64,000 nucleotides of DNA from NCBI GenBank assembly GCA_017885655.1, contig JAFNFQ010000026.1, positions 2,505 to 66,504 of the forward strand, read 5' to 3'. Below, one piece after another: positions 19,881 to 41,555 of this stretch. The position numbers were made by a program, and so were the translations under genes. Below the pieces are notes generated by a model, which saw only the letters and a list, made by a program, of their open reading frames with translations, was not told the DNA's origin and did not search any database. Origin of the DNA: Methanobacteriota archaeon. GTDB lineage: Archaea > Thermoplasmatota > Thermoplasmata > RBG-16-68-12 > JAFNFQ01. The stretch's first letter is position 1. The number at the start of each line of letters is the position of its first letter.

Positions 19881-20444
19881 ATGGACTCCAAGCGAATGAA
19901 GATGAAAATCTGTCTCGTCGGGGAGGCGGCGGTGGGAAAAACAAGCCTCATTCGGCGCTTCGTCCTGGATGATTTTGACGACAAGTACATTCAGACTCTG
20001 GGTACGAAGGTTTCGAAGAAGGAACTCAAGACGAACCACCCCGACCTGGACCTCGAGCTGAAGGTCGACATGACCATATGGGACATCATGGGACAGAAGG
20101 GATTCCGCGAACTGCTCAAAGAGGCGTATTTCTACGGAGCCAAGGGCATAGTCGCCGTCTGCGACTCGACGCGAAGGAGCACGCTCGACGACTTGGACGA
20201 CTGGATCGAAGGGGTCTACAGCGTGACAGGTAAGATCCCGATCGTCTTCATAGCGAACAAGTGCGACATAAGGGAGAAGATGGAGTTCGCCGAGGCCGAG
20301 ATGGTCCAGGCCACGAAGGCCTACGACTCGCCTTTCTATTTCTCCAGCGCGAAGACCGGGGAGAACGTGGAGACGGCGTTCCAATCCCTCGCCGAGCGGG
20401 TGGCCAAAGAGCGCTTGGCCAGGCGTGAACCAGTCGAGGAATAG
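19881..20444 (+). CDS. Ras/Rab-like small GTPase, paralog 1
   Basis: G1 GEAAVGKTS, switch-I Thr (TLGTKV), G3 WDIMGQ (DxxGQ), G4 NKCD, G5 SSAKTG. 187 aa. Confidence 0.8.
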   Translation: MDSKRMKMKICLVGEAAVGKTSLIRRFVLDDFDDKYIQTLGTKVSKKELKTNHPDLDLELKVDMTIWDIMGQKGFRELLKEAYFYGAKGIVAVCDSTRRSTLDDLDDWIEGVYSVTGKIPIVFIANKCDIREKMEFAEAEMVQATKAYDSPFYFSSAKTGENVETAFQSLAERVAKERLARREPVEE

Positions 20445-21019: not shown

Positions 21020-21583
21020 ATGCAGACTGAGACTCTTCTCACACAGAAGCATGTGAAGGCGAAGCTGTGCCTCGTCGGCGAGACCGGCGTTGGCAAGACA
21101 TCGTTGATCCGGAGGTTCGTGACGGACAGATTCGATGACAGGTACATCGCGACGGTCGGCACGAAGATCACGAAGAAAAGCGCGGATGTCTTGTGGCGTG
21201 ACGAACCGAGGACGCTCGACATGACGATCTGGGACATCATGGGCGAGAAAGGTTTTCGTACACTACTCAAGGAGGCGTACTTCCACGGTTCTCAGGGCAT
21301 CATCGCGGTCTGCGACCTCACCAGGCCGGACACGCTCTTCGACCTGAGCGGATGGGTGAACATTGCGGTCAAGCAGGTCGGAGAGGTGCCGTTCGTTTTC
21401 CTGGGGAACAAGACTGACCTGTCCAAGGAGAAGCTCGTGGACGAGGAGGATCTTGCGAAGCTGTCCGCGATCCACAAGTCCCCCTACTACCTCACGAGCG
21501 CAAAGACCGGCGAGAACATCGATCACGCGTTCAAGTCGATATCGAAGGCGATAGTCGCGGCATATTCGGACGAGACTGGCTGA
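21020..21583 (+). CDS. Ras/Rab-like small GTPase, paralog 2
   Basis: GETGVGKTS, TVGTKI, WDIMGEKG (Gln of DxxGQ replaced by Glu), NKTD, TSAKTG. 187 aa. Confidence 0.8.
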   Translation: MQTETLLTQKHVKAKLCLVGETGVGKTSLIRRFVTDRFDDRYIATVGTKITKKSADVLWRDEPRTLDMTIWDIMGEKGFRTLLKEAYFHGSQGIIAVCDLTRPDTLFDLSGWVNIAVKQVGEVPFVFLGNKTDLSKEKLVDEEDLAKLSAIHKSPYYLTSAKTGENIDHAFKSISKAIVAAYSDETG

Positions 21584-21646: not shown

Positions 21647-22213
21647 ATGTCGACAGTTGGAGCGGTCACCGCAACTAAGCAGAGGATGAAGGTCAAGATC
21701 TGTCTGGTCGGAGAGGGGGCGGTGGGCAAGACCTGCCTCATCCGCCGCTTCATCCACGATCAGTTCGACGACAAGTACATCTCGACTTTGGGGGCGAAGG
21801 TCTCCAAGAAGGAGATCAGTATGCCCGACCCCAGGGGCGGGCCAGACCTCGAGATAGACATGACAGTCTGGGACATCATGGGAGAGAAAGGCTTCCGTGA
21901 GCTGCTCAAAGAAGCATATTTCCATGGAGCGCAGGGCATCCTGGCGCTGTGCGATGTCACACGCAAGGACACGCTGCTGGAGCTGCCCGAGTGGGTCAAC
22001 GCGGTGAACAAGGTTGCCGGCGCGGTCCCGATGACGCTGCTGGCAAACAAGGTCGACCTTGTCAACCAGCGCGTCATCACCGACGAGGAGATCACGAAGG
22101 TGGCCGAAAGCTACAAGGCGCCCTGGATGAAGACGAGCGCCAAGACAGGCGAGAACGTAGAGTCCGGGTTCCAGAAGCTCGCGTGGCTCATCGCGAACAA
22201 GACTCTCCAGTGA
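21647..22213 (+). CDS. Ras/Rab-like small GTPase, paralog 3
   Basis: GEGAVGKTC, TLGAKV, WDIMGEKG, NKVD, TSAKTG. 188 aa. Confidence 0.8.
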   Translation: MSTVGAVTATKQRMKVKICLVGEGAVGKTCLIRRFIHDQFDDKYISTLGAKVSKKEISMPDPRGGPDLEIDMTVWDIMGEKGFRELLKEAYFHGAQGILALCDVTRKDTLLELPEWVNAVNKVAGAVPMTLLANKVDLVNQRVITDEEITKVAESYKAPWMKTSAKTGENVESGFQKLAWLIANKTLQ

Positions 22214-23722: not shown

Positions 23723-24913
23723 TCAGATGAGGTCCAGGAACTTCTCGACGAGCTGCGGGTGTCTTTCCTTGATGACTTTCAGGATGCGGTGAATCGAAAG
23801 TTTCTCGACACCTACCTCGGCGAGAGTCCCTATGATCAGGTCGAACTCCTCGTCGGTGAGCGTGACCAGCTTGTTCTTCGCCATCCAGTTGCGGTAGAGG
23901 CCCTCTTCCAGGATCGCCCGCCAGCCTCTCTCATACTTCATGAGCTGGTTTAGCGACCAGTCGCCCGTCCTTGCCGCTTCCCCGAGCACCTCACCGAGGA
24001 TTTTCCCTGCCCTGCAGCCGTTCCCGATTCCACCGCCAGTGATCGGATCGACCAGCCTCGCAGCATCGCCGACGAGGGCGACACCATCCCGCACAGTCTC
24101 GTCTATAGGCGCGCATGTTGAGACCGCGCCTGTGACCATGTCGAGCATCTGCGCCTTCTTCATGCGCGGTTCCTTGGCTATCCATCTGTCCAGGTAACCC
24201 CTGATTTCGTTGGGTTCCTTCAATCTGTCAAGCGAAAGCCCGATGCCCACGTTGGCGGTGCACTCGTCCTTCGGAAAGACCCATATGTACCCGCCAGGCG
24301 CGATGCTCCCGAGGAGGAACTCGCAGTAGTTCGGGAAGTCCTCGTCGGGCTGGATGTTCGTCAGCCTGTATTGCAGTGTAGCGGTGACGTCTTCCGCCTT
24401 GAGGATCGTCTTGATCCCCGCCCACCGTCCTACCTGCGACTCGTAGCCGTCCGCGCCGACAATGACCTTGGCCTTGATGTCCATATTCTCGCTGAGCCGC
24501 CCGACGCGCACGCCCGTCACCTTGCCGTTCTCCTTCAGCAGCCCGAATGCCGTAGTCTTGACCCAGATCTCTGCGCCCGCTTTGGCGGCGTGCTTGGCGA
24601 GCGTCTTGTCGAACATGTCCCTCTCGACGACTATCCCCACCTCATTCCCTGCGTGCCTCTCATCAATCTTGAAGACTTTGCCGCCAGGGGAGATGACCTT
24701 GGCGCCCTTGACCTCGATAGCCACCCATCTCCTGTCATATGGAATATTGCATTCTTCCAGGAAATGTCTCGCGATGCCCTCGCCACACCTGACAGGCGAG
24801 CCTATCTCCTGGCGCTTCTCGATCATCAGGACCGTCGCGCCGCCTTCTGCGGCGTATCTGGCGGTCAGGCTCCCGGCGGGTCCAGCGCCAACAACAACGA
24901 CATCGTATTCCAT
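23723..24913 (-). CDS. geranylgeranyl reductase (digeranylgeranylglycerophospholipid reductase family)
   Basis: Internal ATG 24911-24913, MEYDVVVVGAGPAGSLTARYAA… FAD Rossmann fold, PxVRCGEG motif, 396 aa. The track N-terminal extension overlaps the ferredoxin gene. Confidence 0.9.
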   Translation of the reverse strand: MEYDVVVVGAGPAGSLTARYAAEGGATVLMIEKRQEIGSPVRCGEGIARHFLEECNIPYDRRWVAIEVKGAKVISPGGKVFKIDERHAGNEVGIVVERDMFDKTLAKHAAKAGAEIWVKTTAFGLLKENGKVTGVRVGRLSENMDIKAKVIVGADGYESQVGRWAGIKTILKAEDVTATLQYRLTNIQPDEDFPNYCEFLLGSIAPGGYIWVFPKDECTANVGIGLSLDRLKEPNEIRGYLDRWIAKEPRMKKAQMLDMVTGAVSTCAPIDETVRDGVALVGDAARLVDPITGGGIGNGCRAGKILGEVLGEAARTGDWSLNQLMKYERGWRAILEEGLYRNWMAKNKLVTLTDEEFDLIIGTLAEVGVEKLSIHRILKVIKERHPQLVEKFLDLI

Positions 24914-24917
24914 GTCC

Positions 24918-25151
24918 TCACCTCCGCCTGGACAGCCTGTGCCCCTGCGGGTAGTCGATCGCACCGACCGCGCACACTCGCACACACATGCCGCACTGCG
25001 TGCACTTCTCGTCGAAAGAGAGGAACGTCTCGTAGAGGAAGATCGAGTTCATCGGACATGTGCCGACGCACGCTCCGCAGTGCATGCAGAGAGTGCCTTC
25101 AACGGTCATGCGGCCGCTGTCGTCTCCGCTCGTGTAACCTTTAGGCCTCAT
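24918..25151 (-). CDS. 2x[4Fe-4S] ferredoxin
   Basis: CMHCGACVGTCP and CTQCGMCVRVCAVGA motifs. Probable start at internal Met 25109 (MTVEG…). The track start would overlap the rSAM stop by 11 nt. Confidence 0.75.
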   Translation of the reverse strand: MRPKGYTSGDDSGRMTVEGTLCMHCGACVGTCPMNSIFLYETFLSFDEKCTQCGMCVRVCAVGAIDYPQGHRLSRRR

Positions 25152-26754
25152 GCTTCTTCCTCCATTCCTCGAGGGGAACCGAGAACTTCTTCTCTGTCGA
25201 CTCGCGGAAGACAGGCCCTGTGTTGTACGCGCAGAACGGGATTATCTTGCCATCCGGCGTGGCATAGTGCACGCCGCACCTCTTCACCCGCTCTATGTCG
25301 TAGTTGTAGAGGTCCATGAAGTGCATCGCGCCGACGTACATCGTCGCCCAGGAGAATTCCGATACCCCCTGCTTGTCACCCCTGGTGAGCATCGAGCCGA
25401 GTATCTTCCTCATCTTGACGAGGCTCATCTGGTCGGGCGACTTCGTCTGGTCGAAGTGCCTGCTCAGGATCCTGAAGGCCTTGACCTTCGTGAGGAGCAG
25501 CATCCTCTTGCCCCTCGCCTCCTGCGTCAGGGCCCACAGCTCCTCCATCAGTCCCTCGACGTCGACGAACCTGGTGATCGGCAGGGGGGGCTTCCCCGTC
25601 TGGAGGAAGAAGTACGACGCGAGGCCGCAGCCCGGGTGAGTCGTGAAAGATGTCTTCGGGGTGCCCGCGAAGATCGAGAACAGCTCGGACAGCGGGGACA
25701 CGAACGGCGGCGGGTACCAGTCGTCCTTCGTCAGGTATCCCGTCTGCTTCTCGACGTCGTGAACTAGGTCGCTCAGGGTGTACCTAAGCTTCCTCCGGTC
25801 CTCGTCGGGGATCCTGCCCGAGAGGCTTACAGGTTGGAAGTTGATGCCTTTGATTACATCCCCGTTCTCGATGCCGTATTTGATGATCTCGCCGACCTGG
25901 TCGTCGTTGAACGTCTTGACTATCGTCGGTACGAGGACCACGGAGGGTCGCCTCTCCTTCGGCACCTCTCTCACGTTGGCGATGACCTTCTTCTTGGTAT
26001 CCAGCAGGGCGACACCGCGAGTCTTCTTGTAGTTCTCGTCGCGGAGGCCGTCGAACTGCAGGTAGATGGTGTCCAGCCCCGCCTTCGAGGCATCGTCCAG
26101 GAACTTCGGTTCGTTGGCCATCCTGATCCCGTTCGTGGCGACCTGGATCTGCGTGAATCCGAGCCTGTTGGCTTCTCTGAGCACATCGTGAAACCTTGGA
26201 TAGATAGTCGGCTCGCCGCCTGACAGCTGTATCGCGTTGACGGGGATAGGCCTCTGCTCCTTAAGCATCTTGAGCTCCCCCGCAATCTGATCGTAGCTCG
26301 GCTCGAAGACGTAACCCGCCGCGTTCGCGTTCGCGAAGCACACGGGGCACTTGAGGTTGCATCGGTTGGTGAGATCGATGTTGGCGAGGCAGGTGTTGGT
26401 GTAGTGGAGGTTGCACAGGCCGCAATCTGTCGGGCAGGTCGTCGCGTTGGTGACCTGCGGGTTCTCAATGCCGACGCCGTCGAAGGCCCATTTCTCCGCC
26501 TTGAGGTAGAGCTCGACGTCGGACCACAGGACGTCTTCAAAGTGACCGTGCTCGTCGCAGTCCTTCTTCATCATCAGCGCGCCCTTGTCCGCGTAGATCG
26601 TGGCGGGAATGATCTTGACGCACTCGGGGCAGAGCGATTCCGTCTGCCGGGGCAACCCCTTCTCGAGCTTCGAGGGCGTGGTGACCATGCCCTCGTCCCG
26701 CGACTCCTCGTAGACTTTTTTCAGCACAGTCCCGTTAGCACCGCACAGAGCCAT
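25141..26754 (-). CDS. radical SAM enzyme, 537 aa, with N-terminal Cys/His zinc-ribbon-like region and two tandem Cx3Cx2C motifs; candidate lipid-modifying (Tes/GDGT-MAS-like) enzyme
   Basis: CNLKCPVC radical-SAM triad is preceded by CPTDCGLC. N-terminal CPEC…CDEHGH. First gene of a tight operon with ferredoxin and GGR. Family assignment is inference. Confidence 0.8.
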   Translation of the reverse strand: MALCGANGTVLKKVYEESRDEGMVTTPSKLEKGLPRQTESLCPECVKIIPATIYADKGALMMKKDCDEHGHFEDVLWSDVELYLKAEKWAFDGVGIENPQVTNATTCPTDCGLCNLHYTNTCLANIDLTNRCNLKCPVCFANANAAGYVFEPSYDQIAGELKMLKEQRPIPVNAIQLSGGEPTIYPRFHDVLREANRLGFTQIQVATNGIRMANEPKFLDDASKAGLDTIYLQFDGLRDENYKKTRGVALLDTKKKVIANVREVPKERRPSVVLVPTIVKTFNDDQVGEIIKYGIENGDVIKGINFQPVSLSGRIPDEDRRKLRYTLSDLVHDVEKQTGYLTKDDWYPPPFVSPLSELFSIFAGTPKTSFTTHPGCGLASYFFLQTGKPPLPITRFVDVEGLMEELWALTQEARGKRMLLLTKVKAFRILSRHFDQTKSPDQMSLVKMRKILGSMLTRGDKQGVSEFSWATMYVGAMHFMDLYNYDIERVKRCGVHYATPDGKIIPFCAYNTGPVFRESTEKKFSVPLEEWRKKHEA

Positions 26755-27096
26755 CTTGAATCACTTGACCGGAATGAAGAAACGGTCTGCAAATAAACAT
26801 TTTGTAGCTATGCCTACTACGAGACGGGGAAAAGGGAGAGATTGGCTCATTCTTTCTTGGCGGGGGTGTCGTCTGAGCACGGTGATTTTCTCCTGAACTC
26901 TTTGTGATTGATTCCGGATTTCTTGGAGAATGCGGAATGTCATCTACGTATCAACTACGGACCAACAACGCTCCAACTACGGTCTGGAAGCGCCACAAAG
27001 ACATTTGATGCCCGAAATCTTCTTATCTTCAAGTGGGCTTCACGCTCAGGTCAGACTGGGGCGACGCACTCAGTCGCCTTGACGCGAGGTGCGGAC

Positions 27097-27663
27097 ATGG
27101 CAAAGATCTCCAATGTCTTCGGCACGACTTTCAGCGGCAGGATAGGGAAGAAGATGATCGCCTCATCGTGGAAGGGGCACGAGTACATCCGCACCTACGT
27201 GAAGCCGCACAACCCGAATACCAGGAACCAGCGAAGGGCGAGGGGGCGGTTCGCCGCGGCCGTCGAGGAGTGGCAGGGGTTCTCCGGCGTGCAGCAGGAG
27301 TTCTACGACAGGATCGCCGAGAGGATGAGCGGGTTCAACCTGTTCATCAGCAGGTACGTGAAGGCGGTGCGGGATGGAGAGGAGCCGGAGACGCCGGTGG
27401 AGATGAGGTGGAAGACCGCTGGCGGGGGGCTCATCGAGGACGGCGACCTGATAGTCATGGCGGGGAAGCGCGAGGTGTTCAGGGTCGGCCTGGGTGAGGG
27501 CAGGGCGGAGGTCGCGCTCACACAGTCGGACTCACCCTACTTCTTCGTACTCAAGAATGGAATGGCGAGGGAGGAGGTACTGGAGATCAGGGACCTGGCA
27601 AAGGCGGGAGTCCCCAAGGTGCTCGAGAGCAGGAAGCTGGGAATAAAGCTGGTGGCATACTAG
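27097..27663 (+). CDS. hypothetical protein (188 aa)
   Basis: Internal ATG 27097 (MAKISNVFGTTFSGRIGKK…) chosen over the track start 26908, whose upstream part lies in a promoter-like region. Good codon usage. Confidence 0.45.
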   Translation: MAKISNVFGTTFSGRIGKKMIASSWKGHEYIRTYVKPHNPNTRNQRRARGRFAAAVEEWQGFSGVQQEFYDRIAERMSGFNLFISRYVKAVRDGEEPETPVEMRWKTAGGGLIEDGDLIVMAGKREVFRVGLGEGRAEVALTQSDSPYFFVLKNGMAREEVLEIRDLAKAGVPKVLESRKLGIKLVAY

Positions 27664-28414
27664 CCGAGGTCAATTGCACTGCGCGCGTTCGCGATCATCC
27701 TGCTCGTGGCGGGAGAGCGGTCTTCGAAGAAGCGGCCATGGACGGCCGGGAAGGACGGGATGGCGGTGGCGAAGGCGTTCACCTTCACCTCGATGCCATT
27801 CGTCGTCGCGGAGGCGGCAACTGGCGTGGCGTCTTTCCTCACAGGGCAGCTGTCGATGCCGCCGCTGGTTGGAGTGGGCACTGCCGTTGACTTGGCGATT
27901 GCCCTTGCAGGAATGGTCACCGCGATTCTACGGACGGTGAGGACAAGACCATCGGGAGCAGGAGAAACGGGCGCGCCGCAGAAGCGGTGACAGGCGGGAG
28001 TCCGACCTGTTTTCCGGCCGCCACACCCTCATGTTACGTGGGGGTCTCGATGACACCCTCGGAAACGGAGGACCTTCAAGACCCTCCGGGCCGCTTTGCA
28101 GGAATTCCCTTCCGTAACGGGAGTCACTGAGCACTCGCAGACCCTGCAAGAAGGGATAAATATCAATCCGCCGTTCCGCGATCCAAAGTTCCCTGCGAAA
28201 TGGGAGTGGAGAAGATGAAGCGGAATATGTTTCGGCGTGTCGCGGTAGGTCTGATTGTCGCCGCCCTCAAGGAAGGGCAACCATTGGAAGGGAATCCATA
28301 TAATGTCGTGGAAAAGTTCTGGAGTCCAGTCGAATCCCAGCATCTCAAGCTGATAGTCGTCCTTGGAGAAACGTACCTTACCGAAGGCAGTATTGTTACA
28401 GCCTACATCGAGTA

Positions 28415-29152
28415 GTGATGTCAAGATGCCGCACGCACAAGCTCCTCCTGAAATGGACGCGCCTTCACTTCGAGTTAGGATTGTCGGCCTTGAGGGTGGC
28501 GAGGGAGATGGGCATGGTCGATTCCAATTGCCCAGTAGGAGAGCCATCATGTGCTTCCTGCCTGATTGGACCATGGAACCATGGCGCGACCGAACCCATG
28601 GGAGACCTGATGCCTCGTGGTTGGGGAGAAGGGCCCTCATTCGACCGAGAATCGTTTTATGCCGGCAGGTCGCGAGACTTCCCCCCGAGCGGGATAGGGT
28701 GCTCCTGCACTACGTCTTGGGGGGGCATTGGATTCACCCACCACCTTATATGTGGTGCCGTTGTAGGGAAGGTACGGGACGAGGACCGTGCCTTCGTCGT
28801 GGATTGCGGAGTCCCCGTCAGCGTGTTCTTGCCCCCCGGGATGTCTCCTAACGAAGGCGAGATGATAGAAGTCACGGGCAGACTTGATGCGACCTTGATT
28901 AGAGAAATGGATCCTCTTTTTACCCTTCCCGCGGAGTATCGCGAATTGCTCGAGATGCCCCCAGGCTCTAACTCTCGTCTATTAGAGAACCAGTTCATCA
29001 AGGAGTTCGAGCGGCATGGAATCTCTCTGGGCGGTCCCGTATGGGTTTCGATTACGGGGGATGGAAAGGAATTTCGCGTGGACGCTTCGGAGAGCCGGGA
29101 ATTCTTTATCGTCGAGACCGCGAGGGATTTGGCGGTTTACCCACCGCCCTAG
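28415..29152 (+). CDS. hypothetical protein, uncertain (atypical composition region)
   Basis: Longest ORF in a 2-kb stretch (27990-30150) of mixed-frame ORFs with lower GC3. The C-terminal half looks protein-like (…IEVTGRLDATLIREMDPLFTLPAEYRELLEM…). The start is unclear. Confidence 0.25.
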   Translation: MMSRCRTHKLLLKWTRLHFELGLSALRVAREMGMVDSNCPVGEPSCASCLIGPWNHGATEPMGDLMPRGWGEGPSFDRESFYAGRSRDFPPSGIGCSCTTSWGGIGFTHHLICGAVVGKVRDEDRAFVVDCGVPVSVFLPPGMSPNEGEMIEVTGRLDATLIREMDPLFTLPAEYRELLEMPPGSNSRLLENQFIKEFERHGISLGGPVWVSITGDGKEFRVDASESREFFIVETARDLAVYPPP

Positions 29153-30149
29153 GCCAATCAAATCGCACCGCTCCACGCACGTGGCGCCTTGCTCCACACG
29201 CGGAAGGTACGGCTCGGGATGCGGAGGAGAGACCTCTGCATTAGGACTAGAATGCTCCGAATGCGGAGGTGCTTCCCCCCAAAGCCTTCAGGCTCTGTCG
29301 GCATCGGGGAAAACCGACCAGGGAGTCTCAGTCGCTTCCTCCCGCTCGCTTTGACCCCTTCCAGAATCGACTGCAATGGTTCCGTCTACGGTCATCCATT
29401 CTCTTGATCCTGGTCGGGCAGTCTCGACTTCTCCGACGACTCGAGCGTGACTATCTGCTCGTCGATCTCCGCGATGAAACCATCCGTCACAGATTCCGCG
29501 CGACGACCGGAATCCCTCATCTGCTGCACCGCGCTTCGCTGTGCCAAACCACCCCGGAGTGGCGGGCGAAAACAAGACACCGAGAGTGGTCACCAAGGCG
29601 AGGAATGCATGGTACAACCTAACGCAAAGCGAGAGAGTGTTCTACAACCAGATTGCCGCTGCAAATGGTCTTCCTGGCATCTACCTCTTCGCGAGCATGT
29701 ATGTGATGGCTGTGCGCGGGGGGGCTTTGGGACAATTGGAATGAGATACCGAGTTAGCGCATCTCCTCCCGCGGCTAGATGCGGAGCTCCCTCTTGTCCG
29801 CCGCCGTCAAGGCCACCGACCTCGTATGCACCTCCGCGCCAAGCCCCCTCAGGAGACGGACGACCTGCCAATAGTCACCGACGCGGCAATGTCATCTAGG
29901 ATGTGTGTCGCCAAGTCGGCCTCAAAGGCGTCTAGGCTGCCTCTCATCAGGGACATCGCTTCATGTTATGCGCAAGGTTTTCACGCATGACTGATCAAAA
30001 GGAAAACTCCAGGAAGTCCAGAGGCATCGGATTCCTTGTCAACGGATACGGTGCGGCGCTGAAAGACGCGCGAGATCATGGGCGAGTGGAGTGGAGACTG
30101 CTCCTTGCCTACCTGAACGCATTGGCACGCCGTTGCGATTCTCTCCAAA

Positions 30150-33100
30150 TCAACCGCCCACGAACCATGTCGCGTCGGACGACAGGCACACCCAGTAGCC
30201 CTGCCCCGGCAGCATCAGGTCGTTCGGACCAAGCACCCGCAGATTGTAGTCGGGGGCAGACGGGCTAAAGCCCTCTATGCGCGAGATGGGCAATCCCGCC
30301 AACGCGTCTGCCACCCTCCTCGGCGTCATGCTGGGATAGCCGACGAGATTCCATCCCGCCTTGAGATGCACGGGGTACCCTGACGGCACGACTCCCGCCA
30401 CGGTGATTTGTGAAGGCCCCGAGCTCCCTGCCCAAAGCCCCATGCCGTTGTCCACGAAGAACAGGTCGCGATATCCCGCCGCGGTGTACTCTTTCCACGG
30501 ATCGACGGAGTCCGTTGAGTCAAAGTATCTCGCATATGTGAAGTTGAATGGACGAATCGTTGCGGTGGCCAGCACAGATGACGCGCTCGTGTTCTCGATC
30601 AGCAGCGGGAACGAGACGAGGTCGTGCCCCGTGAGATGTATCTTGTACGCACCCGCCTGATTCGACGGCGCAGATAGGCCCGCCGTGGAGTTCGCGAGTA
30701 CCTGGCAGAAGATGTTGTCCGGGCTGCGTTGGCCCATGTTCTGCAGCACCGCCCAGTCGTATCCCGGGGGCGCCACCACTACCGGGCCATAGGATGCGCC
30801 GCTCGGGTCATACACGTTTCCGCACCTCACGACATAGCCCGTCACTCTCCTGTACAGCCAGTCATCGGCGGATAGGTTCCAGGTCAGCCTGACATCCCAG
30901 AGACTGTTGCCATCCAGTTCGGCTCGGAGGTCTGAAGGCCCTCTCACCGGCACAATCGGAGCCGCCCCCGATCCTGTGAACGCCTTGACATAGATGTCCT
31001 TGTCCCCGAAGCCGTTCCTGTCGCTCTCCCAGGCGAGCCACATCGCGCCACTGGCCCCGCCACCGATGGCTACCTCCTCGTCAGCGTGCGGGTCCGTCGT
31101 CACCTGGAAGTCGGGGGACCAGCCGGTCTTGTTCCACACCTTGAGGAAGATGTCCTTGTTGCCGGTCCGATCGCTCTCCCAGGCGACATAGACGTAGCCG
31201 TTCGGGTTCGTCGCGATGGCGGGCTTGATGTCCTCTCCGATATCCGTGGTCAACTGCCTCTCAGCGGACCAAGTCGACCCGTCGTAGCTCCTGACGAAGA
31301 TGTCCTTGTTCCCGTTGCGGTCACTCTCCCACGCGACCCAAAGCGTGCCCGCGTTGTCGAACGTCACGACGGGCCTCACGTCCTGCGCGGCGTTCGTGCT
31401 GAGCCTCGTCGGCGTCGTCCATCCGGAGCCGCTGTTCGTGCTGTAGTACAGGTCGAACTGCTTGCCGGACTCCGATTCATAGAACACCCAGATGGTCCCG
31501 GTCGGAGACACCACGACTTTCGCCCCGCCCCACCACCCCTGGTTCCCAGGCCTCTTGTCTACATCCTGCTGCGCGGTCCATGTCGTGCCGTCGAACGACC
31601 GCGCGGAGATGTTCTCGTCGTTGAACGGGGTGTTGCTGATCTGCATGCCCGGCCGGAAGTACAGCGCGTAATACGTGTGCCTATACGCGGTCCAGAGCTT
31701 GCCGTCCGGCGCGAAGGCCGCAGATGGTGCACCGTCGCTCTCGTTGTGATCGACGGCGTTGGTGATTCGCTCGGGCGCATGCCAGCCGTCGTACGAGTGC
31801 ACTGCACCATAGAGGTCGTACTTCGCCGCCCAGTACCACATCGGGTGCCTCGTGGCGATGTAGTTGGCATACTCCACTTTGTTGCTCGAGAATATGAGCC
31901 ACATGTCGCCGTTCGGATCCGGAGCGAGAGTCGGCGCGCCGGTGTGCTTGTAGTTTTCGGCTATCGTCTCGACCTTTCCCCAGCTCGTCCCGTCGAAGTC
32001 GGTGGCATAGACGTCGAAGTTCTCGTACATCCCGAATGTGTGCCAGGTGAACCAGACGCGGCCATTCGTGTCGACTGCGATGTCTGGATCCATATCGTTG
32101 TGCTTGCTCTGGGAGATGAGTATCTCATCGCTCCATGTCCGCGCTTCGCGGGTGATTGTGAATTGCCTGCTCATGATGTTGTTGTCCTCGTCCAGCTCCT
32201 TGATCACTCCAGCGCGGTCAACAGCAACGAAGATGTTCTTGATTCCGACGATGCCGGCGGTGTCCCAGACGACGCTCGCGGTCTCTCTGCCTCCCGCGGC
32301 GATGGCGAGGATGACCTGCGTCAGGCCAATCTTCGTCCCGCCAGAACTCGGGTCGCCGTTGAAGAACTCAACGGGGACGTTTGCGGTGTCATTGAACCCC
32401 ACGTTCCAGATGTTGGCGGTAATCGTCACAGCCGTGTTCTCAGCAGGGTCCGTCGGGTCTGTCGTGATGTCGAGCATGTTCAATGTGAGGTCAGCATCCG
32501 CCTCCAGTTTCAGCGGATTTCTCATGACCTCCGCCAGCGATTCGTAGAGCGCCACAGAATGGTCGTAGGGCAGCTCCATGACAAGTACCTCGTGGCTTGT
32601 GATGTTCATGGAGGATACAGGCACGTGCACGTACCCGCCCGCCTCGCCGGTCTGGGTCATGTACGTGGCGCCGTACGCGTATCCGTGATACTGGGTGGTC
32701 CAATATGCCCTCCCGACGAGGATCCCGCGCGTCACATACCCGTCTTCAGAAGGTAAGAACGGATAGTAGCTCACGTTCCCTCCCGCCCAGGGATACATCT
32801 GTCCGGAGTATCTGTCCCTGTAGACGTACGTGGAGAAGTCGGGAATGTAACGGAAAATGGAGGCATTGGCTGACGGCTGCGCGACGGCGTACCAGCCGTT
32901 GAAGCCCGTCGAGTAGTTGGTGGTGACCAACTGCCCGTCGTTTCCTTGATTGTCATAGAAGAACCGGTAGGAGCCGTTCTCCAGGGGCTGCATCTCGTTC
33001 ACGTGCCGCTCATACCAGCCCCATCTGGTGTTCGTATACAGCTGCAGTGTGCCGTCGTTCATGCCCATGACGATGTCCTGGAAGCCGTCCCCGGTGAAGT

Positions 33101-34883
33101 CCCCGAACTCGGGGACGGTGTAGTCCTTGTTCCACCACACGCCACTTCCTATCGTGCCGAGCACGGAGGGCTTGAGCTGTGTGAAGCGGGGTGACGAGTT
33201 CGTCCCGGTGTTCGCGAAATAGATCAGGCTACCGAAAGTCGTGAAGTTCTGCCCCGAGACGAAGTCGAGCAACCCGTCCATCTCGACGTCCACGATCTCG
33301 GGCGTCGTGAAGTTCCCAGGCATCTTTGTCGGGCCATGGTTGAGGTAGGAGAACGTCACATCGTCCTTGACCCACGCCGGGTTGACCCTGTTGCCGTCGT
33401 TGCGATAGAAATCGAAACCACCAACGAACTTGCCCACCAGGAGGTCGAGGTCCCCGTCGGAGTCCACGTCAGCCAGTTCCGGGGCGGCGAAGAGCGGCAT
33501 GGCCATGCTGTTGACGCCCGTGAGCATCGCGTCGTCCCGCATCCAGACCGGAGAGGCGGGAGTCCCCGTGTTCCTGAAGGCGATGAGCTGCCCGCTCGCC
33601 AGACCCACGACCAGGTCCAAGTCGCCGTCGCCGTCCAGGTCCCCGAGGACCGGGGCGGTGTTGCTGTTCCAGGGCCCGCCGGGCGGAGCGAAGTTGGGCC
33701 TTGCGGTGAATATCGGATTCGATGGCCCGCCGGTGTTCTCATAGCCCGTGAGGGTACCCGCCAGCGAACCGACGATCATGTCCAGATCGCCATCGCCGTC
33801 GAGGTCGCCAGAAGATGGCGCGCTGCGGTTGCCGACGTCAAGGCCAACCAGTTTCGTCTGGTCCCATGTCCAGTTGAGCGCGGGAGTCTTCACCCATTGC
33901 CGGACGTGGTTCGGCGTCCCGTAGATGTACTCGTAGTTCCCGTCGTCAGCCATAAGCGCCGAGATCTCCATGACGAAACCGTTGTGGTTGTAGAACTTCT
34001 CGTTGACCTTCTTCGAGACGTACTCGTCGATGACGGAGCGGTTGTTGTAGACGATGACGGTTATGACGGCCCAGAGGAGGTCCGTGTCCCTTTCGAGGCT
34101 CGAGAGCATCCCGACCCCCCAGTGTATCCAGTAGGGGCTTTTGTAGACGAGATGAGTCGACACCATGACGTTGTTGCTGTCGACGACGATCGAGTCGGGG
34201 ACGCCCCATCCCAGCTGGATGCTCGGCTGGTCGGGGACGAGCAGGTCTCCCGCCACCCTCACCAGTATTCCGCTCTGTGCCTGGTAGGGGTAGGTCGTGT
34301 GGTTGTAGTAGACGCGCACGCTGTTCGTGTAGTAGAAGTCGGAGTTGTCGATCCAGATTCGGTAGTTCCTCATGTCGGTGGCGTTGCCGTCGGTGACGTA
34401 GATGTTCGGCGGATTGATGGAGAATCCCATGTCTCCAACGAGCGCCGTCCTGTTGCCGGGTTTGATGAAGTAACCCCTCTTCTCGCCCGCGTTGAAGCTG
34501 TCCTGGAAGGCAATCCTCATCCTGTGAACATACCCGCTGGGATAGAGCTCCACTGTGGAGTTCAACGGTCCCGACAGGACCTCGCTGTCATCGGTCTGCC
34601 GCCGCACCGAGAAGTTCGTCGAATCGGTGATCATAGAGTCGGGCAGGGTGAGGTTCATCTGGATGACTTCATCCGGCCTGTTGACTGCAATCGTGTTGGT
34701 GACGTTCAGCGCAACCGCCAATGGCGAGGCCATCGGGCGTGGCGACTCGCTGCCCGCCTCGCTCCCGCCATGCAAGTACGCCGGCATGAAAAGCATCGTC
34801 GCGACAATCGCAGCGCCAAGAACCTTCGTCAGCCGTGCGGTTGGAGAATCCGACAAGTGACCCCGACCCCTTGGGGGAGTCAA
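30150..34883 (-). CDS. giant secreted/surface protein (1577 aa) with FG-GAP/VCBS and PD40-like beta-propeller repeats
   Basis: N-terminal signal peptide. Repeated GDLDGDGDLD (FG-GAP/VCBS Ca-binding), repeated W(E)SDRNGNKDIF (PD40/TolB-like), many N-x-S/T sequons. No C-terminal TM. Confidence 0.85.
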   Translation of the reverse strand: MTPPRGRGHLSDSPTARLTKVLGAAIVATMLFMPAYLHGGSEAGSESPRPMASPLAVALNVTNTIAVNRPDEVIQMNLTLPDSMITDSTNFSVRRQTDDSEVLSGPLNSTVELYPSGYVHRMRIAFQDSFNAGEKRGYFIKPGNRTALVGDMGFSINPPNIYVTDGNATDMRNYRIWIDNSDFYYTNSVRVYYNHTTYPYQAQSGILVRVAGDLLVPDQPSIQLGWGVPDSIVVDSNNVMVSTHLVYKSPYWIHWGVGMLSSLERDTDLLWAVITVIVYNNRSVIDEYVSKKVNEKFYNHNGFVMEISALMADDGNYEYIYGTPNHVRQWVKTPALNWTWDQTKLVGLDVGNRSAPSSGDLDGDGDLDMIVGSLAGTLTGYENTGGPSNPIFTARPNFAPPGGPWNSNTAPVLGDLDGDGDLDLVVGLASGQLIAFRNTGTPASPVWMRDDAMLTGVNSMAMPLFAAPELADVDSDGDLDLLVGKFVGGFDFYRNDGNRVNPAWVKDDVTFSYLNHGPTKMPGNFTTPEIVDVEMDGLLDFVSGQNFTTFGSLIYFANTGTNSSPRFTQLKPSVLGTIGSGVWWNKDYTVPEFGDFTGDGFQDIVMGMNDGTLQLYTNTRWGWYERHVNEMQPLENGSYRFFYDNQGNDGQLVTTNYSTGFNGWYAVAQPSANASIFRYIPDFSTYVYRDRYSGQMYPWAGGNVSYYPFLPSEDGYVTRGILVGRAYWTTQYHGYAYGATYMTQTGEAGGYVHVPVSSMNITSHEVLVMELPYDHSVALYESLAEVMRNPLKLEADADLTLNMLDITTDPTDPAENTAVTITANIWNVGFNDTANVPVEFFNGDPSSGGTKIGLTQVILAIAAGGRETASVVWDTAGIVGIKNIFVAVDRAGVIKELDEDNNIMSRQFTITREARTWSDEILISQSKHNDMDPDIAVDTNGRVWFTWHTFGMYENFDVYATDFDGTSWGKVETIAENYKHTGAPTLAPDPNGDMWLIFSSNKVEYANYIATRHPMWYWAAKYDLYGAVHSYDGWHAPERITNAVDHNESDGAPSAAFAPDGKLWTAYRHTYYALYFRPGMQISNTPFNDENISARSFDGTTWTAQQDVDKRPGNQGWWGGAKVVVSPTGTIWVFYESESGKQFDLYYSTNSGSGWTTPTRLSTNAAQDVRPVVTFDNAGTLWVAWESDRNGNKDIFVRSYDGSTWSAERQLTTDIGEDIKPAIATNPNGYVYVAWESDRTGNKDIFLKVWNKTGWSPDFQVTTDPHADEEVAIGGGASGAMWLAWESDRNGFGDKDIYVKAFTGSGAAPIVPVRGPSDLRAELDGNSLWDVRLTWNLSADDWLYRRVTGYVVRCGNVYDPSGASYGPVVVAPPGYDWAVLQNMGQRSPDNIFCQVLANSTAGLSAPSNQAGAYKIHLTGHDLVSFPLLIENTSASSVLATATIRPFNFTYARYFDSTDSVDPWKEYTAAGYRDLFFVDNGMGLWAGSSGPSQITVAGVVPSGYPVHLKAGWNLVGYPSMTPRRVADALAGLPISRIEGFSPSAPDYNLRVLGPNDLMLPGQGYWVCLSSDATWFVGG

Positions 34884-35679: not shown

Positions 35680-38600
35680 TCATCCACCGAGCAGCCAAGT
35701 TGCGTCCGAGGAGACGTAAATCCAGTATCCGCGGCCTGGGGACATCATGTCGTCGCCGCCCAGGACTTTGAGGTTGTAAGGAGGAGCGGCAGGGTCTTCT
35801 CCCTCGATTCGCACGACAGGCAGGCCCGCCAGCGCGTCCGACACTGTCCGTGGAGTGAGGCTGGAATAGCCGACTAGATTCCAGCCCGCCTTCAACATGA
35901 TCGTGTATCCATTCGGCACCGTCCCCGTCACCGTGAGCTGACCTGGCCCAGAACTGCCGATCCACAATCCCATGTCGTTGCCTATTCCCACTGAATCGCG
36001 GGGGCCGATCATCGAGAATATCTTCCAAGGGCTCACCGCGTCGAGTTCATCGTAGTATCGCATGTATGTGAAGTTGGATGGTATGTTCGTGAGAGTCGCG
36101 AGCACGGACGTAACAGCAGGATCCTCGATGAGCAACGGGATCGAGATGAGGTTGTGCCCGGTCAGCGCGATTTTGTACGCACCCTGCTGGTTGGAAGGCG
36201 CGGTCGAAGCAAAGGGCGTGTGCGCGATCACATAGCAGAAGACATTCCTCGGGTCGCCCTGTCCGCGGCCAGCCAAGGTCAGCGACCTCACGCTGGCGGG
36301 TGTGTCTGCGACATTGACGTAGCCGACTCCGCTTCTATCATAGACATCCCCGCACATGACCGTGTATCCGTTCACAAGATTGGTCGACCAGTCGTGCACG
36401 GGGTAGCTCCAGGTCAACTTCACGTCCTCGTAGAGGGCTCCGGACAGCTCCGCCTTCAACGTAGGAGGCGGCAACTGCAGGACCTTGGCGATTATGTCCT
36501 TGTCGCCGTAGCCATTCCTGTCAGACTCCCAGACGAGCATCGCGCCCCCTGAGCCGGTCCCCGCGATCTTGACCTGCTCATCGGAGCGGGCATCTTTTGT
36601 AACCTGCAGGTCCGGCGTCCAGGCGGCGCCGTCGAAGACTTTCAGGAAGATGTCCTTATTCCCGGTCCTGTCGCTCTCCCATGCCATGAGGACGTTTCCC
36701 GTGCCGTCCGTGGAGATCGCGGGCTTCATATCCTCGCCAGGTTCGGTCGTGAGCCTGATGTCGTTCGACCACGATGTGCCGTTGAGGTATTTCACGTACA
36801 GGTCCTTCTCGCCGTCCCTGTCGCTCTCCCAAACGACGATAAGGCTTCCGCGCGAGTCGAAGGTCGCGACGGGCCTGACGTCTTGCCCGGGGTTGTTCGT
36901 CAACCTCGCGGGCGCACTCCATCCAGATCCGTTATTCTTGCTGTAGTAGATCTCGAACTGCGTCTGGCTGAGCTCGGATTCGTAGAACGCCCAGATCGTG
37001 CCGGACGGCGACACCGTCAGGTAGGCACCGCCCCACCAGCCTTGGTTTCCCGCTCGGTTGTCGACTACCTGCTCGCCGCTCCAGGAGGTCCCGTTGAACG
37101 ACCTGGCGGAGATGTTCATGTCCTGATAGGGGATGTTGTACATCTGCTGCCCATGGGAGTAGAGGTCGAAGTGCGTGTGCCTGAACGCCGTCCAAAGCGT
37201 GCCGTCTTGGGCGACCGCCACTCGCGGCGCCTGGTCGGCGTTGTCCTTCTCGACCGCCTGGGAGAAACGATACGGGGCCTGCCAGCCGCCTGACGAGTGG
37301 TTCAGGGCCCACAGGTCGAACTTCTGGCTCCAGTAATAAATGCCGTTCTTCGTCGTGATGAACTTGTCATACTCGACGATATTGCTGGAGAAGATCAGCT
37401 GTACGTCCCCGTTAGGCATTGCGGCGAGGGCGGGCGCGCTCGTCCGCTTCATTCCCGATGTGAGCTGCTGGACGCCAGACATTGTATTCCCATCATAGAC
37501 CCTTGCGAACATGTCGAAGTCATCCTTTCTGACGAAAGTGTGCCACGCCACCCAGATGTCGCCGTTGGCATCGGTCACGAGGTCGGGATCCATGTCGTTG
37601 TATGTTGACTCCGAGAGTATCCAATCCCCGCTCCATGCCCTCCGCGTGGCTGTGATTTGAAACGTCCTGCTAGCGACGTTGTTGTCTTCGTCGGTCTCCG
37701 CTACCGTGTTCCCCCGATCCACCGCCACGAAGATCGTCCTCGCCCCACTTATGCCCACTGTGCTCCAGAGGGCGCTCGCACTGTAGACGCTCCCGGCCGG
37801 AATCGACGGGATCACGTAAGTCGTGTCAATCTTCGTGCCACCAGCCGACGGATCGCCATCGAAGAACTCCACCTGGACGTTGCTCGCGGTCTTGAACCCG
37901 GTGTTCCACACGTTGGCGAGAACCCAGACATCCTGTCCCTGCCCGGGGTCCGATGGATCGGTCGTGATGTCGATGGGGCGGAGCGTGAGATCGGGATCGC
38001 TGTCCAGAATCAACGGGTTCTTCATCTTCGCGGCGATCGAATCATAGAGCGCGGCGGAATGGTCGTACGGCAGCTCCAGCACCAGGGTCTCCCTGCTCCT
38101 GTGGTCCATGGCGGTCATCGGGACCTGCAGGAACCCGCCCGCCGTCCCGGTCTGCGAGAGGTACGTTCCGCCGTATCCGTAGCCGCCTGCGGTCGCATCG
38201 GTGGCGGCGCGGGTGACTAGCATCCCCCTCCCGATCCGCCCGTCCTCTCCCGGGATGAACGGGTAGTAGCTCGTGTTCCCGCCGGCCCACGGATACATCT
38301 CGCCTGAATATTCGTCCCTGTACGCGTACCTCGCGAAGTCGGGCACGTAGCGGAATATCGAAGCGTTGGCGGAAGGGTTGGAGACGACGTACCATCCGTA
38401 GAAGTCGCTGGAGTAATTCCTGATCACATATTGCCCGTCGTTGCCGTCCTGGTCATAGTAATACCTGTACGAACCGTTCTGCAGGGGCTGCATCGTGTTC
38501 GCGTGTCTCTCGGGCAGAGAGTATCCCTGGTTCGCATAGAACTCCAGGGTCCCGTTGTTGATGCCGATCGCTATGTCCTCGAGCCCGTCGCCGTTCAGGT

Positions 38601-40399: not shown

Positions 40400-41326
40400 T
40401 TAAGCTTTCGAAGGCGGGAGAGAGCTCAGCGAAGCCGTCACCTCCGCCCTCGAGCGATAGACTCTGTCGTCGAGCTGCTTCAACAGCACAGAGGCCCGAA
40501 CACGCTTGCTGTCCGCAAGATCGACGAGTTTCCAGCCTTGGTGGCGTATCAGCTCATCCCTGGAAGACGGGAACTTTGCATCCTCCTTGAGAACCTCGTC
40601 GAGCGATGCGAGGCCCTCGCCTTTCGTCACCTTCGGGAATATTCCCGTCCTCTTGAACGCGGCGAACCGGGCGGCATCCTTGTACATCTTCACTCCGTGG
40701 AATGCGAACACGGCGAAGTCGAACCCGCCCCTGGATGTCCGGTCGTCTGCGTCCTCCAGCTCCTCGTCGGTCGGCTGGTAGATGTTATGCTCGCCCTTCC
40801 CGAAGATGCGCAGATACGCCTGGTCGGACGGCACCCTCGGATCCTGCAAGATGGGATCGACAACGTCGATGGCATGAATGTCGCTCATCGTCTTGGCAAG
40901 CTTTAGCGGGAGATCCCGACCACTGTAGGCTCTTGCCTCGATACATACCGTCGCACGCAGATCGACTGAAGAGACGAGATTCACGATGGCGGTGCAGGAG
41001 GAATCGTCGAATTTCCGCCATGGCGGGTACTCGAGCACGAGCCAAGGGGCTTTGAGGCGGTCGCAGATGGCGGCGGCCCGACCTAGGTGCTCTCTCGCCT
41101 CGGGATCGTCTAGTCTCCCGCCATCGTGAGTGATTCGGCGGGGAGCCTTGACTGAGAACTTGAATGTCGATGGAACGGTTTGCCGCCAACGGGCCACGTC
41201 CCTTGCTTCGGGAAGGCGATAGAACGTATTATTCGCCTCGACGAACTGAAATGCCCGCGCATAGGTGCGGAGGCCGCCGGAGAAGTAGCCCCACCCGCCG
41301 GCGCCGATGAAGGCCTCGCCGCTCAT
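40400..41326 (-). CDS. DUF72 (UPF0759) family protein
   Basis: Internal Met MSGEAFIGAGGWGYFSGG… (IGTSGWSY-like motif); …FQFVEANNTFYRLP. Confidence 0.7.
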   Translation of the reverse strand: MSGEAFIGAGGWGYFSGGLRTYARAFQFVEANNTFYRLPEARDVARWRQTVPSTFKFSVKAPRRITHDGGRLDDPEAREHLGRAAAICDRLKAPWLVLEYPPWRKFDDSSCTAIVNLVSSVDLRATVCIEARAYSGRDLPLKLAKTMSDIHAIDVVDPILQDPRVPSDQAYLRIFGKGEHNIYQPTDEELEDADDRTSRGGFDFAVFAFHGVKMYKDAARFAAFKRTGIFPKVTKGEGLASLDEVLKEDAKFPSSRDELIRHQGWKLVDLADSKRVRASVLLKQLDDRVYRSRAEVTASLSSLPPSKA

Positions 41327-41555
41327 CGGGCATGAAAGATGGCGGGAGTGGTATAAGAGCTGCGGGATGAGGGGGATGAAAGTGACGGCGGCATCGTCCA
41401 TTCAATCTGGAAAAGGTGGACACATTTCGGGAAAACGCGCTCGAACCTTGGGAGCATGCACCCGAGTCAGCGCATCTTCAGCACTTACAGCGAGAAGTTG
41501 AAAGGAGGGAAGATAGTCACTCGGCCTGGGCCTGATGCTGGTGGTATTCCCAATC

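What the first reader, a model, noticed from the sequence alone, without database searches (positions are those of the whole stretch)
23723..26754. Radical-SAM / ferredoxin / geranylgeranyl-reductase operon: candidate membrane-lipid tailoring module
A 537-aa radical SAM protein (CNLKCPVC, preceded by a second CPTDCGLC Cx3Cx2C and an N-terminal CPEC…CDEHGH metal site) is translationally coupled to a 2x[4Fe-4S] ferredoxin and a digeranylgeranylglycerophospholipid reductase. GGR is the archaeal lipid saturase and needs a ferredoxin-type donor. A co-operonic multi-cluster radical SAM is the profile expected of tetraether-synthase (Tes/GDGT-MAS-type) or ring/bridge-forming lipid enzymes. Such a three-gene arrangement would be a compact, testable lipid-modification unit.
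Basis: partly seen in the sequence, partly recalled or inferred. Interest (0 to 1): 0.65.

Follow-up and report, generated by a model that had tools for sequence, protein, structure and literature searches.

The report
Tetraether lipid synthase–ferredoxin–GGR operon

Summary
Three tightly packed minus-strand genes fill 23723-26754: a 537-aa radical SAM protein, a 2x[4Fe-4S] ferredoxin and a geranylgeranyl reductase (GGR).

- **Radical SAM protein:** it is an orthologue of tetraether lipid synthase Tes/GDGT-MAS. It scores 620.9 bits against the NCBIfam equivalog NF045702 (cut-off 450). It matches the MJ0619 crystal structure (7TOL) at E=4.7e-138 over its full length, with 46% identity. Every published or inferred metal ligand is conserved.
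- **GGR:** it is 49% identical over its full length to the Thermoplasma acidophilum lipid reductase (3OZ2).
- **Gene order:** Tes-ferredoxin-GGR is the same set of adjacent genes as MA_1486/MA_1485/MA_1484 of Methanosarcina acetivorans. Zeng et al. 2022 used that adjacency as a clue to find Tes. GGR plus ferredoxin plus Tes has already been reconstituted in E. coli to make GDGT.
- **Conservation:** I found the same cluster in 47 of 70 evaluable Thermoplasmatota species genomes and in 96%-identical metagenome contigs.

The source is an uncultured Thermoplasmatota archaeon.

- **Interpretation:** supported.
- **Novelty:** none beyond another orthologue.
- **Untested:** the product spectrum, and whether the ferredoxin also reduces Tes.

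The parts
25141..26754 (-). tes: tetraether lipid synthase (GDGT-MAS), 537 aa. A rubredoxin-like Fe site plus three [4Fe-4S] sites.
   Evidence: NCBIfam NF045702 equivalog scores 620.9 bits against a cut-off of 450. Pfam gives Zn_ribbon_HMPTM plus Radical_SAM. PDB 7TOL matches at E=4.7e-138 over residues 28-536. Identity is 45.8% and all ligands are conserved. The N-terminal 21 residues also align in the closest relatives, so the ATG at 26754 is the likely start.
24918..25151 (-). 2x[4Fe-4S] ferredoxin, 77 aa (63 aa if it starts at M15, 25109). Positional equivalent of MA_1485.
   Evidence: Pfam Fer4_7, Fer4 and related families. Eight Cys in two CX2CX2CX3C motifs. Lies immediately after Tes in 46 of 70 evaluable related genomes.
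23723..24913 (-). ggr: digeranylgeranylglycerophospholipid reductase, 396 aa, FAD-dependent
   Evidence: TIGR02032 scores 223.4 against a cut-off of 158.8, and Pfam GGR_cat is present. PDB 3OZ2 matches at E=5.4e-118 over the full length with 49% identity. Motifs found: GAGPAG, RCGE, YIWVFPx8GIG, GDAA.
26791..26797 (-). TTTATTT, a candidate archaeal TATA box 37-43 nt upstream of the tes ATG
   Evidence: Read directly from the sequence. Inference only. No archaeal promoter tool was available, and the sigma-70 scan found nothing.
25159..25163 (-). GGAGG, Shine-Dalgarno-like, 7 nt upstream of the ferredoxin ATG and inside the 3' end of tes
   Evidence: Read directly from the sequence.
24918..24925 (-). 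GGAGGTGA, Shine-Dalgarno-like, overlapping the ferredoxin stop codon, 4 nt before the ggr ATG
   Evidence: Read directly from the sequence.

Best explanation
This is a three-gene archaeal core-lipid operon in an uncultured Thermoplasmatota archaeon.

- GGR is an FAD enzyme. It saturates the geranylgeranyl chains of the diether phospholipid to phytanyl chains.
- The small 2x[4Fe-4S] ferredoxin delivers low-potential electrons to GGR. This was shown for the M. acetivorans pair MA_1485/MA_1484.
- Tes then uses radical SAM chemistry to join the terminal methyl carbons of two saturated phytanyl chains. The steps are 5'-dA radical H-abstraction, a transient substrate-carbon to cluster-sulfur bond on an auxiliary [4Fe-4S] cluster, then a second activation. 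The products are biphytanyl chains, that is membrane-spanning GDGT, with GTGT and macrocyclic archaeol as intermediates or side products.

Shown here: the family identities, conservation of the cofactor ligands, the tight gene packing and the conserved synteny.

Inferred: the activities and their order (from the published work on orthologues), co-transcription, and which products this particular enzyme makes.
For: Tes identity:
- NF045702 equivalog scores 620.9 bits against a cut-off of 450.
- 7TOL/MJ0619 matches at E=4.7e-138 over the full length.
- Rubredoxin-type C42-x2-C45-x20-C66-x2-H69 equals the published C9X2C12X20C33X2H36.
- C107/C111/C114 equal C73/C77/C80 of the N-terminal cluster. 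H117 aligns with the histidine of MJ0619 CPNH, which is probably the published conserved histidine ligand.
- C132/C136/C139 form the radical SAM cluster.
- Met477 and Tyr497 equal the invariant Met439 and Tyr459.
- Q307/S310/R314 equal the residues of the loop that closes over bound 5'-dAH in MJ0619.

GGR identity:
- 3OZ2 matches at E=5.4e-118 with 49% identity, and the family motifs are present.

Context:
- Tes-Fd-GGR is present in 47 of 70 evaluable Thermoplasmatota species genomes.
- It has the same layout in 96%-identical contigs.

Literature:
- MA_1486, MA_1485 and MA_1484 are adjacent, and expressing Tes gives GDGT, GTGT and macrocyclic archaeol (PMC8941075).
- The substrate is saturated, and a sulfur-carbon intermediate forms (PMC9433317).
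- GGR plus ferredoxin plus Tes makes GDGT in E. coli (PMC12042123).
- GGR-ferredoxin synteny is widespread in Euryarchaeota (PMC9385802).
Against: - No experiment exists on these particular proteins.
- The GGR scores below NCBI's order-specific equivalog cut-offs (420 vs 780 for NF041160). It is assigned at subfamily level plus full-length similarity to Ta0516.
- Product specificity cannot be read from sequence. The M. acetivorans paralogue MA_1114 made only traces of macrocyclic archaeol.
- I could not compare the ferredoxin directly with MA_1485.
- 23 of 70 related genomes keep Tes without Fd/GGR nearby, so the linkage is not obligatory.
Confidence: 0.9

Rival explanations
1. The enzyme belongs to the Tes family but mainly or only makes macrocyclic archaeol or GTGT (an intramolecular or single coupling) rather than full GDGT, as reported for the M. 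acetivorans paralogue MA_1114.
For: Tes homologues differ in product yield and spectrum in heterologous hosts (PMC8941075). Sequence alone does not predict the product.
Against: It sits in the MA_1486-type context next to Fd/GGR. It scores well above the Tes equivalog cut-off. From general knowledge, not tested here: cultured Thermoplasmatota such as Thermoplasma and Methanomassiliicoccus have GDGT-dominated membranes.
Confidence: 0.08
2. The radical SAM protein is the methanopterin-pathway methyltransferase (7,8-dihydro-6-hydroxymethylpterin dimethyltransferase, HMPTM), the older annotation of MJ0619 that survives in the Pfam domain name and in some JGI names.
For: The Pfam domain is named Zn_ribbon_HMPTM. 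One homologue is named this way by JGI (P0091).
Against: Lloyd et al. could not corroborate that activity. They showed lipid binding and biphytanyl formation by MJ0619 (PMC9433317). The gene here is packed with lipid genes, not pterin genes.
Confidence: 0.01
3. The radical SAM protein is another related radical SAM enzyme: a TrsS-like (seleno)protein, MoaA, a SPASM-domain maturase such as PqqE or the related AhbC, or a GDGT ring or bridge synthase.
For: There are weaker hits to TrsS (357.6 bits) and to MoaA, PqqE, AhbC and others (28-73 bits).
Against: All of these are below their curated cut-offs (TrsS 490, MoaA 231-325, PqqE 381, AhbC 650), whereas Tes is above its own. No B12-binding domain was found, which a GrsA/B-type B12 radical SAM enzyme would need (the family description is, the bioRxiv 2025 abstract).
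Confidence: 0.01

Closest known systems
Methanosarcina acetivorans MA_1486 (Tes), MA_1485 (ferredoxin) and MA_1484 (GGR)
   Same: The same three gene families lie next to each other, with the ferredoxin between Tes and GGR. The ferredoxin is required for GGR activity, and Tes yields GDGT, GTGT and macrocyclic archaeol (PMC8941075; PMC9385802).
   Different: The host is a different phylum-level lineage (Thermoplasmatota rather than Methanosarcinales). I did not compare sequences directly with the MA proteins because they were not retrievable with the scans I had left. Here the genes overlap or are 4 nt apart.
Methanocaldococcus jannaschii MJ0619, GDGT-MAS (PDB 7TOL/7TOM)
   Same: 46% identity over 491 aligned residues. 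The domain order is identical: rubredoxin-like domain, N-terminal [4Fe-4S] domain, radical SAM core, C-terminal [4Fe-4S] domain. Every ligand named in the paper is conserved, as are Met439 and Tyr459.
   Different: The window protein has a 21-33 residue N-terminal extension. It lacks MJ0619 Cys225, Cys438 and Cys456, none of which the paper names as a ligand. It has extra Cys4 and Cys122.
Thermoplasma acidophilum Ta0516 digeranylgeranylglycerophospholipid reductase (PDB 3OZ2)
   Same: Full-length alignment at 49% identity. The FAD-binding GxGxxG, RCGE, YxWxFPx8GxG and GDAA motifs are all present.
   Different: It scores below the NCBI Thermoplasmatales equivalog cut-off (420 vs 780), so it is a more distant orthologue. 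Here it is paired with a ferredoxin.

Membership tests
Tetraether lipid synthase Tes / GDGT-MAS | Score above the curated equivalog HMM cut-off (NCBIfam NF045702) | tested here: met
   620.9 bits vs cut-off 450, covering profile positions 1-485 of 486
Tetraether lipid synthase Tes / GDGT-MAS | Full-length similarity to the structurally and biochemically characterised MJ0619 | tested here: met
   E=4.7e-138, query residues 28-536 vs chain residues 19-516; 45.8% identity
Tetraether lipid synthase Tes / GDGT-MAS | Rubredoxin-like mononuclear Fe site CX2CX20CX2H | tested here: met
   C42, C45, C66 and H69 align with C9, C12, C33 and H36
Tetraether lipid synthase Tes / GDGT-MAS | N-terminal auxiliary [4Fe-4S] cluster: CX3CX2C plus a conserved His | tested here: met
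   C107, C111 and C114 align with C73, C77 and C80. H117 aligns with the His of MJ0619 CPNH and is invariant in 15 homologues.
Tetraether lipid synthase Tes / GDGT-MAS | Radical SAM CX3CX2C cluster and the residues of the loop that closes over bound 5'-dAH | tested here: met
   C132, C136 and C139; Q307, S310 and R314 align with Q268, S271 and R275. Pfam Radical_SAM scores 81 bits.
Tetraether lipid synthase Tes / GDGT-MAS | C-terminal auxiliary cluster with the labile Met439, and the invariant Tyr459 | tested here: met
   M477 and Y497 are conserved. C376, C493 and C508 are the only conserved C-terminal cysteines. Their role as ligands is inferred, because the paper text I read does not list them.
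Tetraether lipid synthase Tes / GDGT-MAS | Catalyses C(sp3)-C(sp3) coupling of phytanyl termini to form biphytanyl chains | not testable with these tools
   Needs lipidomics or an in vitro assay
Archaeal lipid geranylgeranyl reductase (DGGGPL reductase) | GGR subfamily HMM (TIGR02032) and the GGR catalytic domain | tested here: met
   223.4 bits vs 158.8; Pfam GGR_cat 85.4 bits vs 27
Archaeal lipid geranylgeranyl reductase (DGGGPL reductase) | Order-specific equivalog models (NF041160 Thermoplasmatales, NF041080, NF041385) | tested here: not met
   420 vs 780, 172 vs 580 and 105 vs 700 bits. The protein comes from a lineage outside those on which the models were built.
Archaeal lipid geranylgeranyl reductase (DGGGPL reductase) | Full-length similarity to a characterised lipid GGR, plus the conserved motifs | tested here: met
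   3OZ2 at E=5.4e-118 with 49% identity; GAGPAG, RCGE, YIWVFPx8GIG and GDAA present
GGR-partner ferredoxin (MA_1485 type) | Small 2x[4Fe-4S] ferredoxin encoded next to the lipid GGR | tested here: met
   Two CX2CX2CX3C motifs, and 4 nt upstream of ggr. Conserved in 47 of 70 related genomes.
GGR-partner ferredoxin (MA_1485 type) | Sequence orthology to MA_1485, and the ability to reduce GGR | not tested
The activity needs an experiment.
GDGT ring synthase GrsA/B (B12-binding radical SAM) | A B12-binding domain N-terminal to the radical SAM core | tested here: not met
   Only Zn_ribbon_HMPTM and Radical_SAM were found by Pfam
Radical SAM (seleno)protein TrsS | Equivalog HMM NF045646 above cut-off | tested here: not met
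   357.6 bits vs 490, and only residues 37-349 are covered

The most novel reading that the evidence does not exclude
The co-operonic ferredoxin may be a dedicated low-potential donor for Tes as well as for GGR, reducing its radical SAM and auxiliary clusters. The operon would then be a self-contained 'saturate then couple' redox module.

Hints in favour:
- The ferredoxin start overlaps the tes stop codon, here and in the closest relatives.
- In the three closest species genomes, unrelated DNA has been inserted between the ferredoxin and ggr, while the ferredoxin stays attached to tes.

I found no paper that tests the physiological reductant of Tes.
Probability: 0.3. Interest if true: 0.35.

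Novelty: already known. Interest (0 to 1): 0.12.

Why it matters
It adds little that is new.

- It confirms that this uncultured Thermoplasmatota lineage has the genetic capacity for membrane-spanning GDGT lipids. That is relevant to assigning sources for GDGT-based palaeotemperature proxies.
- It shows that the Tes-ferredoxin-GGR linkage, published for M. acetivorans, is the common arrangement across much of Thermoplasmatota (47 of 70 evaluable species genomes).
- The only open question it touches is which protein reduces Tes in vivo.

Tried and rejected
- **Other radical SAM families.** MoaA, PqqE, NirJ, AhbC, SkfB, viperin and TrsS are all far below their curated cut-offs.
- **Ring or bridge synthase reading.** There is no B12-binding domain.
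- **More lipid genes nearby.** Pfam on 20 neighbouring ORFs gave ribosomal proteins L3/L4/L2, a Na+/H+ exchanger, three Ras-like GTPases, AspRS, DUF6266, FG-GAP/CARDB giants, DUF72, FEN1/XPG, a KaiC-like ATPase and PCMT-TPR. None is lipid-related.
- **RNA features.** Rfam and tRNA scans of the window found nothing.
- **Promoters and terminators.** The sigma-70 promoter scan found nothing, and the terminator scan gave 2 hits against 3.5 expected by chance. The tool does not model archaeal signals.
- **Isobe et al. 2014.** I tried to read it for the MA_1485 details, but it is not held.
- **DNA between the ferredoxin and GGR in L003 and L015.** I checked whether it encodes another lipid enzyme. 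It holds a TerC-like membrane protein, a small membrane protein and a possible transposase fragment. These calls rest on reading the ORF translations alone and are unconfirmed.
- **Not run.** I did not run structure prediction or further large protein searches. The sequence-level assignment is already decisive.
Full report
**Observation**

Region 23723-26754 holds three consecutive minus-strand ORFs.

1. A 537-aa radical SAM protein at 25141-26754.
2. A 77-aa ferredoxin at 24918-25151, with eight cysteines in two CX2CX2CX3C motifs.
3. A geranylgeranyl reductase (GGR) ending at 23723.
   - The ORF listing extends the GGR ORF to a GTG at 24985.
   - The sequence shows an ATG at 24913, preceded by GGAGGTGA, which overlaps the ferredoxin stop codon.
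   - That start gives a 396-aa protein beginning MEYDVVVVGAGPAG. Gene calls in 96%-identical contigs have the same length.

The ferredoxin ATG at 25151 overlaps the stop codon of the radical SAM gene by 11 nt, and a GGAGG lies 7 nt upstream of it. An internal Met15 (25109), seven residues before the first cysteine, is an alternative start. It would leave a 31-nt gap instead.

Either way the three genes are tightly packed. Co-transcription is likely but not demonstrated.

A TTTATTT element at 26797-26791, about 40 nt upstream of the first ATG, is a candidate archaeal TATA box. The next gene downstream, aspartyl-tRNA synthetase, most likely starts at the ATG at 23618, which gives 441 aa as called in L081. 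It has its own TTTATAG at 23650-23644, so it probably lies outside the operon.

**Identity of the radical SAM protein**

- Pfam finds an N-terminal Zn_ribbon_HMPTM domain and a Radical_SAM core.
- NCBIfam's equivalog model for tetraether lipid synthase Tes (NF045702) scores 620.9 bits against a cut-off of 450 and covers the whole profile.
- Every other radical SAM family is far below its cut-off: TrsS 357.6 vs 490, MoaA 73 vs 231, PqqE 47 vs 381, AhbC 29 vs 650.
- Against solved structures, the best match is GDGT-macrocyclic archaeol synthase MJ0619 (7TOL/7TOM), at E=4.7e-138 over residues 28-536.

I rebuilt the MJ0619 sequence from that alignment and mapped the published cofactor ligands (PMC9433317; mapping).

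| Site in MJ0619 | Window protein |
|---|---|
| Rubredoxin-like Fe: C9X2C12X20C33X2H36 | C42, C45, C66, H69 (same spacing) |
| N-terminal [4Fe-4S]: C73, C77, C80 | C107, C111, C114, plus H117 |
| Radical SAM cluster | C132, C136, C139 |
| Labile Met439 and invariant Tyr459 | M477, Y497 |
| Gln268, Ser271, Arg275 (loop that closes over bound 5'-dAH) | Q307, S310, R314 |

- The only C-terminal cysteines conserved between the two proteins are C376, C493 and C508. They are also invariant in 15 homologues, so I infer that they hold the C-terminal cluster.
- Overall identity is 45.8% over 491 residues.
The fourth was missed.

**Identity of the other two genes**

- The GGR passes the GGR subfamily model (TIGR02032, 223 vs 159 bits) and has the GGR catalytic domain.
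- It aligns over its full length with the Thermoplasma acidophilum digeranylgeranylglycerophospholipid reductase 3OZ2 (E=5.4e-118, 49% identity). It carries the GxGxxG, RCGE, YxWxFPx8GxG and GDAA motifs.
- It falls below the order-specific equivalog cut-offs. That fits a lineage outside those the models were built on.
- The ferredoxin is a generic clostridial-type 2x[4Fe-4S] protein.

**Source organism and conservation**

- The closest proteins are unnamed metagenome sequences at 96-76% identity. Named hits are Thermoplasmata and Methanomassiliicoccales, some already annotated 'tetraether lipid synthase Tes'.
- A scan of one genome per species returned 80 loci, nearly all labelled Thermoplasmatota or with older names for the same archaea. 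The best has only 64-65% identity.
- tblastn of the window's ferredoxin, GGR and AspRS against those loci left 70 loci with enough downstream DNA to evaluate:

| Arrangement | Loci |
|---|---|
| Tes-Fd-GGR contiguous (includes L020 and L023, whose ferredoxin hits overlap the Tes end) | 43 |
| Tes-Fd, then 0.6-2.2 kb of unrelated DNA, then GGR | 3 |
| Tes-GGR-Fd-GGR | 1 |
| No Fd or GGR within 6 kb | 23 |

- The 23 loci without the cluster form a more distant group, with Tes 46-52% identical to the window protein.
- Two contigs carrying a 96%-identical Tes have the same order as the window: Tes, Fd, GGR, AspRS, then Ras-like GTPases.

**What is already known**

- Zeng et al. [quoted passage not shown] Expressing MA_1486 or Maeo_0574 in Methanococcus maripaludis gave GDGT, GTGT and macrocyclic archaeol (PMC8941075).
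- Lloyd et al. 2022 solved MJ0619. They showed that the substrate is the fully saturated lipid, so GGR acts first, and that catalysis passes through a substrate-carbon to cluster-sulfur bond (PMC9433317).
- A 2022 review reports that GGR-ferredoxin synteny is widespread in Euryarchaeota (PMC9385802).
- A 2025 study combined MA_1484, MA_1485 and MJ0619 in E. coli and obtained GDGT (PMC12042123).

**Mechanism (inferred for this locus from the orthologues)**

1. GGR saturates the geranylgeranyl chains, using electrons from the ferredoxin.
2. Tes then couples the terminal carbons of two phytanyl chains by radical SAM chemistry, giving biphytanyl chains and hence membrane-spanning tetraethers.

**Still open**

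- The product spectrum of this particular enzyme.
- Whether the ferredoxin also reduces Tes. The ferredoxin start overlaps tes, and in the three closest genomes the ferredoxin stays with tes while unrelated DNA separates it from ggr. This is a weak hint only.

**Verdict**

- The finding is already known: an equivalog-level orthologue in the published gene order.
- Interest is low.

Noticed in passing
window 19881-20444, 21020-21583, 21647-22213 (+): Three Ras-family small GTPases of 187-188 aa lie close together on the plus strand (Pfam Ras 114-130 bits, Roc 87-99 bits). They are convergent with AspRS. The same GTPases sit next to AspRS in 96%-identical metagenome contigs: all three in L081, two in L082 before the contig ends. 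A cluster of eukaryote-like small GTPases in a Thermoplasmatota genome may deserve its own look.
   Followed up: partly
window 30150-34883 and 35680-40356 (-): Two adjacent proteins of about 1560 aa have the same Pfam domains, FG-GAP repeats and a CARDB domain, and one also has PD40 repeats. They are probably paralogous large surface or secreted proteins.
   Followed up: no
window 27700-30100: About 2.4 kb upstream of the operon has no ORF with a Pfam hit, no Rfam family and no tRNA. GC is slightly lower (0.57). Its nature is unknown.
   Followed up: partly
window 26908-27663 (+): A DUF6266 protein is transcribed divergently from tes. Its likely real start is Met64, near 27097, giving 188 aa. 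A 188-aa gene occupies the same position in L081 and L082.
   Followed up: no
L001 1904-4074; L003 1705-3730; L015 7619-11204: In the three closest species-level genomes, 0.6-2.2 kb of unrelated DNA separates the ferredoxin from GGR. L015 has what looks like a TerC-like membrane protein and a possible transposase fragment. L003 has what looks like a small membrane protein on the opposite strand. These calls rest on ORF translations alone and are unconfirmed. In L003 and L015 the ferredoxin start still overlaps the tes stop codon by 8 nt. L001's ORFs were not examined.
   Followed up: partly
L034, L045, L050, L053-L055, L057-L060, L062-L066, L068, L069, L071, L072, L074-L077: A group of 23 loci, nearly all labelled Thermoplasmata, carries Tes (46-52% identical to the window's) with no ferredoxin or GGR within 6 kb. 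The linkage has been lost, or was never present, in that group.
   Followed up: no
window 40400-41401 (-) and 43249-44448 (+); 48222-51056 (-): There are two DUF72 proteins and a 944-aa protein with a C-terminal KaiC-like ATPase domain. They are unrelated to the lipid operon.
   Followed up: no
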